Shown: positions 22,988 to 26,646, numbered from the stretch's first letter. The stretch is 44,584 bases of DNA from an uncultured Candidatus Saccharibacteria bacterium (GCA_964469405.1 CAYXYP010000007.1:1-44584), one strand, 5' to 3'. The notes: a model not told the origin generated them from the sequence alone. Program-made: numbers and translations.

Positions 22988-23590
22988 ATGGACCATATTG
23001 ACGAACTCGCTCATGCGCTCTCCCGTCTCCCGGGTATCGGTCCCCGACAAGGAAAACGTTTTGTGTTCTATCTTCTTGCGGCTCCTGCCGCTGAGCGAAC
23101 CAAACTCGCGGAACTCATAGCGTCACTCGGGAAAGACGTCCGCCAATGCCCCGAGTGTCTGCGTTTCTATAATGGTTCTGCCGCTGTAATGTGCAATTAC
23201 TGTTCTGACATAAAACGTGATGATACTCTTTTGATGATTATTGAAAAAGATCAGGACCTCGCTGCTATCGAGCGTGCTGGTACCTATCGTGGCCGTTATT
23301 TCGTCCTTGGTGGCGTGCTGACACTCACAGGGAAAGGCGCGATTCGTGGGAAGGAGCTACTACGAACAATTGAGAAGAGACTAAAAAATAATTTAAAAGA
23401 GATCGTGCTCGCACTTTCGGCGACAAGCGAAGGTGAGCATACTGCCGATCATGTGCGAGAATTACTCGCGCCCTATCGTGACACCGTAAAAACTTCAGTC
23501 CTTGGTCGCGGTCTTGCGACCGGTAGCGAACTTGAATACTCTGACGCCGAAACCCTCCGCGCCGCGCTCACCAACCGTAAAGAAACCTGA
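22988..23590 (+). CDS. recR: Recombination mediator RecR
   Basis: LPGIGP, C4 zinc finger CPEC...CNYC, YFVLGG and ELEYSD. Confidence 0.94.
   Translation: MDHIDELAHALSRLPGIGPRQGKRFVFYLLAAPAAERTKLAELIASLGKDVRQCPECLRFYNGSAAVMCNYCSDIKRDDTLLMIIEKDQDLAAIERAGTYRGRYFVLGGVLTLTGKGAIRGKELLRTIEKRLKNNLKEIVLALSATSEGEHTADHVRELLAPYRDTVKTSVLGRGLATGSELEYSDAETLRAALTNRKET
23493..23590 (+). repeat. Direct repeat copy 1 (3' end of recR)
   Basis: 98 nt, 90/98 identical to 24351-24448, with the first 61 nt identical. Confidence 0.95.
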
Positions 23591-23593
23591 TTC

Positions 23594-23628
23594 TATACAT
23601 GAAGGGTTTCGTAAACCCTTCATGTATA
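23594..23628. repeat. Left REP-like hairpin
   Basis: tatacatgaagggttt-cgt-aaacccttcatgtata, a perfect 16-bp stem. Confidence 0.9.
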
Positions 23629-23640
23629 ATGATGAGTAAA

Positions 23641-24324
23641 ATGAATTTGTGGCATGTACTAAACCGAGGTGTTGAAGGACGCGACCTTTTCCTAGATTCG
23701 CAAGATTATGCACGCTTCGTTCACAACCTCTATGAGTTTAATGATAGCGCTCCAGCCGATAATCTCTCACGGCTTTTTGATCCGTCTGGAATAAGGGATT
23801 TCGTAAACCCCTCATTTAGAAAAGCACGCGAGCGATTAGTGGATATTCATGGCTGGGTCTTGATGAAAAACCACTATCACCTTTTACTCTCTGAACGTAT
23901 CGAGGGCGGTATTAGTCTATTCCTTCGTAAACTGAATGTCGGTTATGCGAATTATTTCAACGAACGATATAGACGAAAGGGGACGTTATTTCAAGGCCGT
24001 ACCAAGAAAATCTTAGTTGAGCGCGAATCGCATTTCCTTTACATTCTTCATTATCTTCACCTTAATCCACTTGATTATTTACAGGGCGCGCAAGAATGGC
24101 GTGCGCGTAGCAAGAGCGGCATTCGGAATGCAAACGAGGCGCTAGATTATCTTGATTCATACCGATGGAGCAGTTATCTTGACTATATCGACAAGAAGAA
24201 CTTCCCTTCCATCCTTACTACTTCGTTTTTTAAAGAAGCGCTTGATGATTATCAAGGTTCACTTAGAGAATACCTTGGCGATGCCGAGCATGATAATATT
24301 ATTGTAAAATTGACTTTGGAATGA
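23641..24324 (+). CDS. REP-associated tyrosine transposase (RAYT / Y1 HUH family); start may be 23632
   Basis: WHVLNRG, LMKNHYHLL (HUH), YFNERY-x3-GTLFQGR, YLHLNP and YRWSSY. Confidence 0.9.
   Translation: MNLWHVLNRGVEGRDLFLDSQDYARFVHNLYEFNDSAPADNLSRLFDPSGIRDFVNPSFRKARERLVDIHGWVLMKNHYHLLLSERIEGGISLFLRKLNVGYANYFNERYRRKGTLFQGRTKKILVERESHFLYILHYLHLNPLDYLQGAQEWRARSKSGIRNANEALDYLDSYRWSSYLDYIDKKNFPSILTTSFFKEALDDYQGSLREYLGDAEHDNIIVKLTLE
23791..23815. repeat. Degenerate REP-like copy inside the transposase coding sequence
   Basis: ataagggatttcgtaaacccctcat compared with atgaagggtttcgtaaacccttcat. Confidence 0.75.
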
Positions 24325-24347
24325 AGGGTTTACGAAACCCTTCATTC
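24319..24347. repeat. Right REP-like hairpin (inverted copy of the left)
   Basis: gaatgaagggttt-acg-aaacccttcattc, a 13-bp stem; its 25-nt core is the exact reverse complement of 23599-23623. Confidence 0.9.
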
Positions 24348-24350
24348 TGT

Positions 24351-24448
24351 CTTCAGTCCTTGGTCGCGGTCTTGCGACCGGTAGCGAACTTGAATACTCT
24401 GACGCCGAAACTCTCCGCGCTGCCCTCACCAACCGCAAAGAAGCTTAG
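24351..24448 (+). pseudogene. Orphan duplicate of the recR 3' end (direct repeat copy 2)
   Basis: Reads SVLGRGLATGSELEYSDAETLRAALTNRKEA*, with no upstream gene body. Confidence 0.9.
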
Positions 24449-24889
24449 TTAGACCTTTCCCTCTCCAGTCTGTTTCACTTCTACTGTCACTTTTGGAATA
24501 CCATCTCCATGCGCCGATGCGGCTATAATTTCCTGCACTTTAGCGACTATTTCTTTTGGATCGTACTGGCTCTTTACCAGATAGAGTACCGCCCCTAAGC
24601 TTAAGCCATTTTCAGCGTCGCTGTCGCCAGCCAAGTTGGTAAGCATGATGACGGGAATGCTTTTGAGTTTCTCGTCCTCTTTTACCTTACGCAATACATC
24701 AAAGCCGTTCATTTTTGGCATCATGACATCGAGTAATATTACAGCCGGTTTTTCTTCTGTTTTTTGTAATACTGCGAGAGCTTCTTCCCCATCGTGCGCC
24801 ATCGTGAGCTCGTGTCCGCCAAGACGGAATGCCCGCTCGTACATACGACTCATCAAAGGATCATCTTCTGCCATGAATAGTTTTGCCAT
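24449..24889 (-). CDS. Single-domain (CheY-like) response regulator
   Basis: MAEDD, ILLDVMMP, LTN and YLVKS; TATACT 7 nt before the ATG. Confidence 0.92.
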   Translation of the reverse strand: MAKLFMAEDDPLMSRMYERAFRLGGHELTMAHDGEEALAVLQKTEEKPAVILLDVMMPKMNGFDVLRKVKEDEKLKSIPVIMLTNLAGDSDAENGLSLGAVLYLVKSQYDPKEIVAKVQEIIAASAHGDGIPKVTVEVKQTGEGKV

Positions 24890-24915
24890 AGTCGTAAGTA
24901 TACTATACCTTGATA

Positions 24916-26646
24916 TCACTCGGAAATAGGCAGTGTGAACACGAAGGTACTTCCCTTGCCAAGCTCACTCTTCTCAATTCCTATGGTACCACCCATGCTC
25001 GAGATAATGAGTTTAGAAATATAAAGACCGAGACCGGTGCTCTGGGTAACGTCTCGTGCAAGCATCTGCTCTCCCGCCTGCTGGAACTTCCTGAAGAGCA
25101 GTGCTTGATTATGTTCTGAAATACCAAGACCAGTATCAATAACCCGTATACCGATGAAGTTACCTGCCACACTGGCTGTAATAGTAATACCGCCTTCTTT
25201 CGTAAATTTTGCCGCATTACCCACAAGATTAACGAGGATTTGTTCGGTTCTATTCTTGTCGGCAAACACGATAGGCAAAGGAGATGGCGGTGCGATATAC
25301 ACAAGGGACAACCCTTTCTGTTCGTCCATAGTTTTGAGATCGCGTACCACCTTTTCAACCACGTCAGACACATTGAAATTCTCTTTTTTAATTTCGATTT
25401 TACCTTGCTCAAGACGAGACACTTCAAGAAAGTCGTTCACGATATTGATGAGCCGAACACTCGAAGTATCGATATCTTGAAGCATTTCTTTCATATCTTT
25501 GTCGACTATTTTGTCTGTATACATCTCTAACATCATGTCTGCATTACCGCGTATGGCGGTAAGTGGTGTGCGCAATTCGTGGGAAGCAACCGCAAAAAAT
25601 TCATCGCGACTCCGCTCCATGATTTTTGCTTCAGTAACGTCTTCAATAAGCATTGCGTAGCCAATAACCGTCTCTTGCATATCTTGCGACGTCTCGTTTT
25701 TCATGATGATAGGGGTACAAAAAACACGCAAATATTTTTTCCCGTGAGAAATTTCTTTCAATTCCACGACTTTTTTCAGATCGATGCACTCCCGACAAGA
25801 ATGTGTGAGGACATCGAGTCCGGATGTAACCCCTTTGAAGGAATCGATGATACTTTTCATCGAGACCGGTTCCTCGGTAAGTTCCAGGATGGTCGACAGC
25901 ACTGCGTTTTTTACGATGACGTTGTCATTAAGATCGGCAATGACGAACCCGAACGACAGGCTGTTTATGGAAGCGAGAAGACGAGCCTGCTCCTCCTGCA
26001 ATTCCTTGGTTTTCTCTTTGACTTTCTCATCTACTCTTTTCTTTTCAGATATGAGCATGCGCTCATATTCTTTATTCTTTGTCACGTCAGTCTCGAGTCC
26101 AACAAAAAATTTTAGTTCGCCCTTGGCATTGACGACGGGAGATATTACCGCGAACGCCGTATATGTCTCGCCATTTTTTTTCTTATTTTGCAATTCACCG
26201 GCAAAGGTCTTTTTTTCATCTTTAATCGTCCGCCACATATCGGCATAAAACTCCTTCGGCATCTGCTTCCCCCACAATGATGGCTTACTACCTATTATTT
26301 CCTCATGCGAGTATCCGGTCAGTTTCTCCACTGCTTGGTTCGCATAAATGACAACACCGCTAGCGTCGGTAATGACAACGTGCTGGGACGTATTTTCAAC
26401 GACAAGCTGAAACTTCTGCAATTCTTCCGCTCTTTCTTCCGACTTTTTCTTTTCTTCGGAAAGATCGTCAAGTAAATTTAGTGTCGCTTTTTTTGTATTT
26501 TCCAAATCAATCAGTTTCTCTTGCAATTCCTTATTGATGCTCCCCAGCTCAGCGGATCTTTTTTGCAACTGGAACTCGGCCTTTCCCAAGGCTTTTTTCA
26601 TCTCATCGAACTCTTTCAATAAATTTTGAATTTCATCAAGAGCCAT
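24916..26646 (-). CDS. Soluble PAS-domain sensor histidine kinase
   Basis: Coiled coil, PAS (VITDASG...LTGYS), H-box SHELRTPL, N-box NLVGNAAKFT, DTGLGI and GLGL; no transmembrane segment seen. Confidence 0.92.
   Translation of the reverse strand: MALDEIQNLLKEFDEMKKALGKAEFQLQKRSAELGSINKELQEKLIDLENTKKATLNLLDDLSEEKKKSEERAEELQKFQLVVENTSQHVVITDASGVVIYANQAVEKLTGYSHEEIIGSKPSLWGKQMPKEFYADMWRTIKDEKKTFAGELQNKKKNGETYTAFAVISPVVNAKGELKFFVGLETDVTKNKEYERMLISEKKRVDEKVKEKTKELQEEQARLLASINSLSFGFVIADLNDNVIVKNAVLSTILELTEEPVSMKSIIDSFKGVTSGLDVLTHSCRECIDLKKVVELKEISHGKKYLRVFCTPIIMKNETSQDMQETVIGYAMLIEDVTEAKIMERSRDEFFAVASHELRTPLTAIRGNADMMLEMYTDKIVDKDMKEMLQDIDTSSVRLINIVNDFLEVSRLEQGKIEIKKENFNVSDVVEKVVRDLKTMDEQKGLSLVYIAPPSPLPIVFADKNRTEQILVNLVGNAAKFTKEGGITITASVAGNFIGIRVIDTGLGISEHNQALLFRKFQQAGEQMLARDVTQSTGLGLYISKLIISSMGGTIGIEKSELGKGSTFVFTLPISE

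What the first reader, a model, noticed from the sequence alone, without database searches (positions are those of the whole stretch)
23594..24347. REP-like hairpins cap the RAYT gene, cover its promoter and stop codon, and recur inside its ORF
Seen: the left 16-bp hairpin overlaps TATAAT (23625-23630). The right 13-bp hairpin is an inverted copy that contains the TGA stop. A third, degenerate copy lies in frame at 23791-23815 and reads IRDFVNPSF, matching MKGFVNPSC if the left copy is translated. Known: RAYTs bind and nick REP hairpins. No GTAG/CGTC tetranucleotide of classical REPs was noticed next to these. Inference: the enzyme may repress its own promoter by binding the left hairpin, and a REP has been accommodated in a variable protein loop. 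No other copy was seen in the window.
Basis: partly seen in the sequence, partly recalled or inferred. Interest (0 to 1): 0.65.

Follow-up and report, generated by a model that had tools for sequence, protein, structure and literature searches.

The report
RAYT gene with three matching hairpins
A domesticated transposase-like gene (RAYT/TnpA-Y1 type) in a Patescibacteria genome is bracketed by its own 25-nt palindromic hairpins and carries a third copy in frame inside a floppy protein loop; across a very large gene family all three copies change together, a new variant of the known REP–RAYT association.

Summary
The left hairpin (23594-23628), the right hairpin (24319-24347, containing the TGA stop) and the degenerate in-frame copy (23791-23815, 21/25 identical) are all present and are not chance matches.

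The gene encodes a Y1 HUH protein. Its motifs are NHYH, FQ, YLHLNP and an SS tail. Its closest solved fold is E. coli TnpAREP (4ER8).

The new result concerns the whole family. In 55 of 59 related loci, and in six representatives only 31-45% identical, one private palindrome occurs upstream of the ATG, inside the ORF before the HUH motif, and at the stop codon. I found 21 hairpin classes. Copies within a locus are 22-25/25 identical, against about 16.5/25 between loci.

The internal copy is read in two frames and lies in either orientation. It encodes the most variable, lowest-confidence loop of the protein. The constraint is therefore on the DNA, not the peptide.

A -10 box follows the left hairpin at leaderless spacing, which makes autoregulation plausible but leaves it untested. 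Solo and doublet copies of the hairpin occur elsewhere, as REPs and REPINs do.

In-frame REPs inside tnpAREP genes were already reported for a different subclass (2.4). I therefore call this a new variant of a known kind.

A 92-nt duplication of the recR 3' end flanks the cassette in the window.

The parts
23493..23584 (+). Direct repeat copy 1. It forms the last ~31 codons of the intact recR ORF (22988-23590).
23594..23628 (.). Left cognate hairpin: 16-bp arms, loop CGT. The 25-nt family core is 23599-23623.
   Evidence: I3, I1. DNA -14.9 kcal/mol, z -9.7. The position, centred about 30 nt before the ATG, is conserved in 59 loci.
23625..23630 (+). -10-like box TATAAT overlapping the 3' arm of the left stem. 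It is the inferred promoter of a leaderless or near-leaderless RAYT mRNA.
   Evidence: Read from sequence. Family-wide -10 box after the hairpin in 44/59 loci, 6-7 nt before the ATG in 33/44. Not called by the -35/-10 scan.
23641..24324 (+). RAYT-like Y1 HUH gene, 227 aa, starting MNLWH. Upstream in-frame ATGs at 23632, 23629 and 23599 are probably not used. HUH motif: H78-Y79-H80 at 23872-23880. Catalytic Tyr138 at 24052-24054, within YLHLNP.
23791..23815 (+). Internal in-frame copy of the hairpin: 21/25 identical to the left core, 9 of 11 stem pairs, two A.C mismatches. It encodes residues 51-59 (IRDFVNPSF) in the alphaA-beta2 loop.
24319..24347 (.). Right cognate hairpin: 13-bp arms, loop ACG, an inverted copy of the left core at 24321-24345. 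It contains the stop TGA at 24322-24324.
   Evidence: I5, I1.: -13.3 kcal/mol, z -6.7. The right copy lies at or just after the stop codon in 57 loci.
24351..24448 (+). Direct repeat copy 2 (24351-24442) plus GCT TAG. This is an orphan second recR 3' end. It differs from copy 1 at 4 positions, all synonymous, and abuts the convergent response-regulator gene.

Best explanation
This is a REPtron/TIRtron-type unit: a domesticated Y1 HUH endonuclease gene bracketed by its own cognate perfect palindromes. The gene is RAYT/TnpAREP-like and resembles Quentin subclass 2.1 (the TIRYTs) by motif.

**How the enzyme probably works (by homology).** By homology with E. coli TnpAREP and IS608 TnpA, it should bind these palindromes when they fold as hairpins in single-stranded DNA, then cut and rejoin DNA beside them. 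That activity would generate the solo and doublet copies seen elsewhere in related genomes.

**The third copy.** It is an ancient in-frame insertion of the same palindrome into a disordered surface loop between helix alphaA and strand beta2, just before the HUH motif. It has been retained throughout a very large clade. It is kept matched to the flanking copies by repeated conversion or replacement among the three sites, possibly stimulated by the enzyme's own nicking. The loop peptide is therefore a passenger of the DNA element.

**The other two copies.** The left hairpin occupies the -35/spacer region of a promoter whose -10 box drives a leaderless mRNA. Hairpin extrusion or enzyme binding there would be expected to throttle transcription; this is inferred. 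The right hairpin supplies or abuts the stop codon.

**In this window.** The internal copy has started to decay and probably acts only as coding sequence.

**Shown:** the anatomy, the family-wide three-way co-variation, the fold and the loop disorder.
**Inferred:** binding and cleavage, the conversion mechanism and autoregulation.
For: **Protein identity**
- Pfam Y1_Tnp scores 24 bits against a cut-off of 23.
- NCBIfam REP_Tyr_transpos scores 34.5 bits.
- The AlphaFold2 (AF2) model has pLDDT 90.1.
- The best PDB fold match is 4er8_A, TnpAREP bound to a REP (E 4e-6, TM 0.67), followed by the IS608 and ISDra2 TnpA structures.

**Triple hairpin**
- Left, internal and right copies sit at conserved positions in 59 loci. 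Own-locus identity averages 23.85/25 against 16.5/25 across loci. There are 21 classes, and 31 loci have a perfect internal copy.
- The loop triplet is the same in all three copies in 53 of 56 loci.
- The same architecture appears in six distant representatives that are 31-45% identical.

**Constraint at the DNA level**
- The internal copy is read in two frames (35 and 23 loci).
- All four orientation combinations occur at similar frequency (16, 16, 14, 10).
- Internal stems are as perfect as the flanking ones. Mismatches on the sense strand show no G.U bias, 10 G.T against 11 A.C.

**Loop**
- Residues 51-60 are the most variable block of the protein, at 3.86 bits.
- Residues 41-60 are the only internal low-confidence stretch in the model, with pLDDT about 60.

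**Dispersal**
- There are 22 extra copies in 510 kb of flanking sequence.
- Exact copies occur as solo hairpins and as inverted doublets with no RAYT gene nearby.
- Paralogues within one MAG have different hairpins, 5-12 mismatches of 25.

**Inheritance and promoter**
- Synteny is conserved.

**Precedent**
- REPs inserted in frame in tnpAREP genes of subclass 2.4 (PMC6006769).
Against: - No biochemical or expression data exist for any member of this clade.
- The NCBIfam equivalog cut-off of 80 bits is not reached.
- The window's hairpin lacks the GT[AG]G head.
- No extra copy lies in the 44.6-kb window, so dispersal in this particular genome is not shown.
- A purely neutral conversion process has to keep a perfect 25-nt palindrome at one site across proteins down to about 31% identity. 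That arguably points to selection (rival 1).
- The consensus scan found no -35 element for the proposed promoter.
Confidence: 0.6

Rival explanations
1. The in-ORF hairpin is itself a selected cis-acting site, not a tolerated passenger. The enzyme would bind or nick its own coding sequence. Possible roles are negative feedback, a self-excision switch between the left-internal or internal-right copies, or a protected master copy that keeps enzyme specificity and target physically linked.
For: - The position is conserved in a very large clade, down to about 31-45% protein identity.
- The internal copy is as perfectly paired as the flanking ones.
- Compensated stem differences occur where the internal copy differs from the flanks, for example in L043 and L077.
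- Only 1 of 59 loci lacks the internal copy outright (L056), and three more fall below 22/25.
Against: - In the window's own clade the internal copy is decaying (8-9 of 11 pairs), yet the gene stays intact and conserved at 70-84% identity. The site is therefore dispensable at least there.
- No excision or inversion product of the gene could be identified (one search is ambiguous; one search is negative).
- Palindromes can stay symmetrical through repair alone.
Confidence: 0.3
2. The unit is an autonomous IS200/IS605-like insertion sequence. The left and right hairpins would be the transposon ends, and the whole gene would move by peel-and-paste.
For: - It has a Y1 HUH fold and subterminal hairpins.
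- Several copies occur per MAG.
- The cassette is flanked by long direct repeats in the window (92 nt) and in L002 (36 nt).
- The neighbourhood downstream of recR is variable.
Against: - Copies within one genome are diverged paralogues with different hairpins, not identical IS copies.
- Synteny is conserved among MAGs.
- The Tyr motif is Y-x-x-x-N-P (class 2), not the IS200 motif Y-x-x-x-Q (PMC6006769).
- There is no tnpB.
- Hairpin orientation at the two ends is random, whereas IS200/IS605 needs both ends on one strand.
- IS200/IS605 elements make no target duplication.
Confidence: 0.07
3. The hairpins are ordinary expression signals unrelated to the enzyme, such as a terminator of recR, an attenuator or an mRNA stabiliser. 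The internal similarity would then be incidental.
For: - The left hairpin starts 4 nt after the recR stop codon.
- The right hairpin sits at the stop codon of the gene.
- REPs are known to affect 3' ends of transcripts (general literature).
Against: - No T-run follows either hairpin; the scan found 0 terminator-like sites.
- There is no Rfam match.
- This reading does not explain three-way co-variation over 21 classes.
- It does not explain the random orientation.
- It does not explain dispersal as doublets.
- It does not explain the lack of G.U tolerance on the sense strand.
Confidence: 0.03

Closest known systems
REPtron: E. coli TnpAREP (RAYT) with flanking REP/BIME (Nunvar 2010, PMC2817692; Ton-Hoang 2012, PMC3333891; Messing 2012, PMC3479197)
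   Same: - A Y1 HUH enzyme; 4ER8 is the best fold match.
- The gene is bracketed by cognate palindromes.
- Each paralogue has its own repeat family.
- Low copy number and largely vertical inheritance.
- Solo and doublet copies occur elsewhere.
   Different: - The palindromes here are perfect 11-16-bp stems with 1-3-nt loops. They have no free 5' GTAG head.
- The protein is longer (227 aa) and its motifs are NHYH/FQ/YLHLNP rather than DHLH/WE/YIHYNP.
- A third copy lies inside the ORF.
- The hosts are Patescibacteria.
TnpAREP subclass 2.4 with REPs inserted in frame inside the tnpAREP gene (Quentin et al. 2018, PMC6006769)
   Same: - The enzyme's own repeat sits inside its own gene without breaking the reading frame.
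- The repeat lies in a peripheral variable region.
- 'Double-foot' REPs (GT[AG]G ... C[TC]AC) resemble the ATGTAGG...CCTACAT stems seen in 17 of 59 loci.
   Different: [quoted passage not shown] Here there is a single site upstream of the HUH motif, between alphaA and beta2, fixed across the clade.
- The subclass 2.4 motifs (NH[IFV]H, WQ, YIxNNP) are not those of this protein.
- The text I read does not describe three-way concerted evolution or random orientation.
TIRYT / TIRtron (Di Nocera et al. 2013, PMC3733652), equated with subclass 2.1 / Bertels group 1 by Quentin et al.
   Same: - The protein motifs match: NH[YF]H, FQ, Y[IV]HLNP-like, SS tail, length about 238 aa.
- Flanking inverted repeats lie at fixed distances and overlap the gene ends.
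- The GGGGWSAS motif is present in one distant relative (L092, GGGGGGTCAGACCCCCC).
   Different: - Quentin et al. found no REP-like structures near subclass 2.1 genes.
- Di Nocera et al. describe only flanking TIRs and no internal copy.
- Here the repeats are self-complementary hairpins, and they occur three times per gene.
IS200/IS605 TnpA with subterminal hairpins (IS608, ISDra2, IS200)
   Same: - The fold is the same.
- Hairpins are recognised in single-stranded DNA.
- In IS200 a left-end hairpin lies next to the transposase start and limits expression.
   Different: - This is not a multi-copy insertion sequence.
- The Tyr motif is of class 2.
- The end orientation is not fixed.
- There is no tnpB.
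- Known insertion sequences of this family have no internal copy.
In-frame palindromic insertions in unrelated genes (intragenic REPs, PMC3733652; Rickettsia palindromic elements, from my own knowledge)
   Same: Palindromic repeats are tolerated in frame in surface loops of proteins.
   Different: Those are scattered insertions in host genes. Here the host gene is the repeat's own enzyme, and the site is conserved and co-evolving.

Membership tests
Y1 HUH transposase superfamily (TnpA-Y1) | HUH metal-binding motif on a beta strand | tested here: met
   NHYH at residues 77-80 (23869-23880). The two histidines are near-invariant or invariant (H78 >=90%, H80 invariant) in 110 sequences.
Y1 HUH transposase superfamily (TnpA-Y1) | Single catalytic tyrosine on a C-terminal helix | tested here: met
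   Y138 within YLHLNP. It is invariant in alignment A3 and lies on helix 129-146 of the model.
Y1 HUH transposase superfamily (TnpA-Y1) | Fold and profile match | tested here: met
   Pfam PF01797 scores 24 bits against a cut-off of 23. Foldseek hits: 4er8_A at E 4e-6 with probability 1.00, and 2a6m, 2vjv and 2xqc at E 1e-4. A sequence-only PDB search found nothing.
RAYT / TnpAREP REPtron | Gene flanked by its cognate palindromic repeats | tested here: met
   Perfect 25-nt inverted copies at both gene ends. The same holds in 57 of 59 relatives.
RAYT / TnpAREP REPtron | 5' GT[AG]G head at the foot of the REP | tested here: not met
   The window has GAAG at the equivalent stem positions. GT[AG]G is present in 17 of 59 relatives, but paired inside the stem ('double foot'-like).
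RAYT / TnpAREP REPtron | The same repeat dispersed in the genome outside the gene | tested here: inconclusive
   None in the 44.6-kb window. There are 22 extra copies in 510 kb of relatives' flanks. Exact solo and doublet copies occur on metagenome contigs without a RAYT gene. The rest of this genome was not available.
RAYT / TnpAREP REPtron | NCBIfam equivalog REP_Tyr_transpos (NF047646) above cut-off | tested here: not met
   34.5 bits against a cut-off of 80. This is a distant relative, not the canonical subclass.
RAYT / TnpAREP REPtron | Enzyme binds and cleaves its single-stranded REP | not testable with these tools
   Needs a purified protein assay.
Quentin subclass 2.1 (TIRYT, Bertels group 1) | Motifs NH[YF]H, FQ, Y[IV]HLNP, SS in the proximal tail, length about 238 aa | tested here: met
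   NHYH, LFQG, YLHLNP (the family consensus is YIHLNP), RWSSY, 227 aa, compared with Table 1 of PMC6006769. This was judged by motif reading only; the authors' HMMs were not available.
Quentin subclass 2.1 (TIRYT, Bertels group 1) | No REP-like hairpins near the gene (as published) | tested here: not met
   Hairpins are present at both ends and inside the gene.
Quentin subclass 2.4 (REP inserted in tnpAREP) | Motifs NH[IFV]H, WQ, YIxNNP; insertion between HuH and Y | tested here: not met
   The motifs differ. The insertion lies upstream of the HUH motif, at residues 51-59 against HUH at 78-80.
IS200/IS605 insertion sequence | Multiple near-identical copies, Y-x-x-x-Q motif, both ends on one strand, often with tnpB | tested here: not met
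   Paralogues within one MAG differ in protein and in hairpin. The motif is Y-x-x-x-N-P. Orientation is random. No tnpB lies nearby.

The most novel reading that the evidence does not exclude
The cognate hairpin inside the ORF is a selected, family-defining cis site. The enzyme would act on its own coding sequence as well as on the two flanking sites. Its nicking would drive the three-way homogenisation, including flip-flop of the loop, much as hairpin resolution by parvoviral HUH nickases does. The specificity of the enzyme would thus be hard-wired into its own gene. Such an arrangement could also serve as a self-limiting switch, through excision between the left and internal copies or between the internal and right copies.
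Probability: 0.3. Interest if true: 0.75.

Novelty: new variant of a known kind. Interest (0 to 1): 0.55.

Why it matters
What RAYT-type domesticated transposases do, and how REP families stay homogeneous and co-evolve with their enzyme, are still open questions.

This clade offers a compact natural experiment. It comprises thousands of proteins, mostly from uncultured Patescibacteria. Published work reported no REPs for the matching subclass. Each gene carries three copies of its private target within 750 bp, one of them inside the coding sequence. More than 20 specificity classes have switched in concert.

This makes several things directly testable:
- enzyme-target co-evolution;
- nick-driven gene conversion;
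- possible autoregulation, using short synthetic hairpins and one small protein.

It also matters for annotation. The hairpin-encoded loop and the spurious N-terminal extensions (for example MKGFVNPSC...) are DNA-element artefacts in protein databases.

Tried and rejected
- **Chance similarity of the internal copy.** Rejected by shuffles and by the family-wide pattern.
- **Assembly chimera as the origin of the 92-nt repeat.** Rejected. The identical structure, with the same 4 differences, is present in six independent assemblies. The shared 61-mer also has double depth in Logan contigs.
- **Search for an empty recR site or excision products in public runs.** Only contigs were available. A 61-nt exact repeat cannot be resolved with 31-mers. 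The observed 'joints' are hairpin-CAG-hairpin doublets with foreign flanks, so they are most simply other REP doublets. Inconclusive.
- **Metatranscriptomes.** They hold none of the sequence.
- **First AlphaFold2 run with a shallow alignment.** Unusable, pLDDT 44. It was replaced by a run with a diverse alignment.
- **Sequence-only PDB search.** No hit.
- **Idea that homologues whose similarity starts at the internal hairpin (for example P0124) carry an inverted N-terminal segment.** The DNA shows an unrelated N-terminus, no hairpins and no inversion. No DNA was available for P0188.
- **Protein-only test comparing N-terminal extensions with loop peptides in distant representatives.** Uninformative, because those N-termini are genuine protein.
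- **RNA-level function.** No Rfam family matches, and there is no G.U bias.

Full report
**1. Observation**

- The left palindrome has 16-bp arms (23594-23609 and 23613-23628, loop CGT).
- The right palindrome has 13-bp arms (24319-24331 and 24335-24347, loop ACG) and contains the TGA stop at 24322-24324.
- Their 25-nt cores (23599-23623 and 24321-24345) are perfect inverted copies.
- A third copy at 23791-23815 is 21/25 identical to the left core and lies in frame.
- TATAAT at 23625-23630 overlaps the 3' arm of the left stem.

The internal match exceeds anything found in 300 block-shuffled windows, where the best was 19/25. No other copy occurs in the window.

As single strands the flanking hairpins are very stable (z -9.7 and -6.7). 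The window's internal copy is not. It has two A.C mismatches and gives z about -0.6 as DNA and -0.2 as RNA.

**2. The gene**

The ORF most likely starts at the ATG at 23641 (MNLWH...) and encodes 227 aa.
- It matches Pfam Y1_Tnp just above its cut-off.
- It matches the NCBIfam RAYT equivalog well below its cut-off.
- It has 3,597 close database relatives, annotated 'transposase' where named, from Kaiserbacteria, Paceibacterota and other Patescibacteria MAGs.
- A whole-library profile search gives 18,854 cluster representatives at E <= 1e-3.

With a diverse alignment AlphaFold2 gives a confident model (pLDDT 90.1). Its best solved-structure match is E. coli TnpAREP bound to a REP hairpin (4er8_A, E 4e-6), followed by the IS608 and ISDra2 TnpA structures.

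The motifs are NHYH, LFQG, YLHLNP and RWSSY, and the length is 227 aa. These fit subclass 2.1 of Quentin et al. 2018 (PMC6006769). That paper equates subclass 2.1 with the TIRYTs of Di Nocera et al. 2013 (PMC3733652).

**3. The family-wide result**

I fetched 80 related loci from species-representative genomes. In each I located the left hairpin, and then searched for it inside the ORF and at the 3' end.

Of the 59 analysable loci:
- The same 25-nt palindrome occurs centred 18-48 nt before the ATG (mostly 20-35), and again 132-162 nt into the ORF (44-75 nt before the IHGW strand that precedes the HUH motif). In 57 of them it also occurs at or just after the stop codon.
- The palindrome differs greatly between loci. 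There are 21 classes, for example ATGAAGGGTTT, ATGTAGGACGT, TATCGGGAGAT, ATGTTCGACCT and TGTCGGGACGT.
- Within a locus the internal copy matches the left copy at a mean of 23.85/25. Fifty-five loci are at >=22/25 and 31 are perfect. Across loci the mean is 16.5/25.
- The 3-nt loop is the same in all three copies in 53 of 56 loci.
- Paralogues within one MAG have different private hairpins.

Six much more distant representatives, 31-45% identical, show the same triple arrangement with other palindromes. An example is ATGTTTAGAGGTTCAACCTCTAAACAT, present three times in L089. L092 carries GGGGGGTCAGACCCCCC, which contains Di Nocera's TIRYT motif GGGGWSAS.

The architecture is therefore a hallmark of a very large clade. 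It is not a peculiarity of this window.

**4. What is constrained**

- The internal copy is read in two different frames (35 and 23 loci).
- It lies in either orientation. The four orientation combinations of the internal and right copies relative to the left are about equally common (16, 16, 14, 10).
- The encoded peptides are accordingly unrelated: IRDFVNPSF, NVGRTTSYI, YREIVSPDI, MFDLRGRTF and others.
- Residues 51-60 are the most variable block of the protein (3.86 bits).
- Residues 41-60 are the only internal low-confidence stretch of the model. They form the linker between helix 20-32 and strand 67-74.
- Internal stems are as perfect as flanking ones: 33 of 58 have 11/11 pairs, against 36 of 59 and 33 of 57.
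- Mismatches on the sense strand show no G.U preference, 10 G.T against 11 A.C.

The constraint is therefore on the DNA palindrome and the peptide is a passenger.

In the window's own subclade (70-84% protein identity) the internal copy is partly decayed, with 8-9 of 11 pairs, while the peptide MRDFVNPSF is fairly conserved. Even so, the inner stem still follows the flanks in L005 and L007.

**5. REP-like behaviour**

- Extra copies of a locus's own palindrome occur in its flanks: 22 in 510 kb, several as close pairs.
- An exact-match scan of metagenome contigs for the window's 25-mer found 10 loci. Three flank RAYT genes, three are inverted doublets (hairpin-CAG/CTA-hairpin) and four are solo copies. 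None of the last seven flanks a RAYT gene; one doublet (L095) lies about 3 kb from a different, 54%-identical RAYT.
- Logan contigs of the source groundwater samples also contain such doublets with foreign flanks.
- The gene sits in conserved synteny in several groups. One is dnaB-recR-(0-800 nt of variable cargo)-RAYT in L003, L005, L007, L009 and L011. Another is the shared flanking genes of the L037 group.

Private repeat families, low copy number and mainly vertical inheritance are the published hallmarks of RAYT/REP systems (PMC2817692, PMC6006769).

**6. Promoter**

In 44 of 59 loci a -10-like hexamer (TATAAT, TATACT or TATGAT) follows the left hairpin. In 33 of those 44 its end is 6-7 nt from the ATG. 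No Shine-Dalgarno sequence is visible in that 6-7-nt gap (my reading; not scored). This is the geometry of a leaderless mRNA.

The hairpin would then occupy the -35/spacer region. In the window the spacing from TATAAT to the ATG is 10 nt. The simple -35/-10 scan did not call a promoter there.

Autoregulation through the left hairpin is thus positionally plausible but untested. No terminator-like T-run follows either hairpin, and no Rfam family matches.

**7. The recR duplication**

The cassette is bracketed by a 92-nt direct repeat (23493-23584 and 24351-24442).
- Copy 1 completes the intact recR ORF.
- Copy 2 is an orphan second recR 3' end. It abuts the stop codon of the convergent response-regulator gene.
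- The copies differ at 4 positions. All four are synonymous (P about 0.005) and all lie in the last 31 nt. Each variant also occurs among relatives' recR genes.
- The structure is identical in six independent assemblies.

This looks like recombination with a diverged recR-RAYT allele rather than in-situ duplication followed by drift. One route is homology-facilitated illegitimate recombination, with the illegitimate joint 3 nt beyond the right hairpin. Another is Campbell-type insertion of an 858-nt circle.

L002 has a perfect 36-nt direct repeat around its cassette. The cassette therefore does occasionally move or get replaced.

**8. Comparison with what is known**

REPtrons are well described. 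[quoted passage not shown]

For subclass 2.1, which this protein resembles, that study found no REP-like structures. Di Nocera et al. described only flanking TIRs.

What is new here:
- cognate hairpins in this subclass and in these phyla;
- a single conserved in-ORF site upstream of the HUH motif;
- quantitative three-way concerted evolution with random loop orientation;
- the leaderless-promoter arrangement.

I found no paper describing this. The literature search covers open-access text only.

**9. Mechanism and verdict**

Most likely (about 0.6), the internal copy is an ancient, tolerated in-frame REP. It is kept matched to the flanking copies by conversion or replacement among the three sites. 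The enzyme acts on the hairpins in single-stranded DNA, as TnpAREP does.

The main rival (about 0.3) is that the in-ORF site is itself selected as a target of the enzyme.

An autonomous IS200-like element and plain expression signals are both unlikely.

It is a new variant of a known kind, of moderate to good interest.

Noticed in passing
window 23493-23584 and 24351-24442: A 92-nt direct repeat of the recR 3' end brackets the RAYT cassette. All 4 differences are synonymous and cluster in the last 31 nt. The structure is identical in six independent assemblies. This suggests the cassette was acquired or replaced by recombination with a diverged recR-RAYT allele.
   Followed up: partly
L002, about 100-65 nt before the ATG and 52-87 nt after the stop: A perfect 36-nt direct repeat (CATAAGCCGCACGAGGCGGATGGTTTCAAACGAGTG) flanks another RAYT cassette, about 30 nt outside each hairpin. 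This is a second case of a long duplication around the unit.
   Followed up: no
L003, L005, L009, L011 (between recR and the RAYT gene); L011 4525-4555: In relatives with dnaB-recR synteny, 475-800 nt of unrelated 'cargo' ORFs lie between recR and the RAYT gene. In L011 a further hairpin variant sits right at the recR stop, so hairpins bracket the cargo. The site looks like a recombination hot spot.
   Followed up: partly
L095 5291-5343, L099 1232-1284, L103 3573-3625: Inverted doublets of the window's exact hairpin, separated by 3 nt (CAG or CTA), occur away from the cognate RAYT gene. They are arranged like REPINs or BIMEs. Some lie inside long open reading frames.
   Followed up: partly
window 23599-23640; many database proteins (for example P0086, P0234): Gene callers often start these ORFs upstream, within the left hairpin. 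This produces spurious N-terminal extensions that mimic the internal loop peptide, for example MKGFVNPSC / IRDFVNPSF and KSHVGSRVSHIK / NVGSRVSHIK.
   Followed up: yes
window 24446-24451: The orphan recR stop (TAG) directly abuts the stop of the convergent response-regulator gene (24449-24919, minus strand). This is what a compact 'empty site' junction between recR and the response-regulator gene would look like.
   Followed up: no
L104 115-804: A homologue (P0124) in which the first ~38 residues, including the YHV strand, are replaced by unrelated sequence and no hairpins are recognisable. It is probably a degraded copy.
   Followed up: partly
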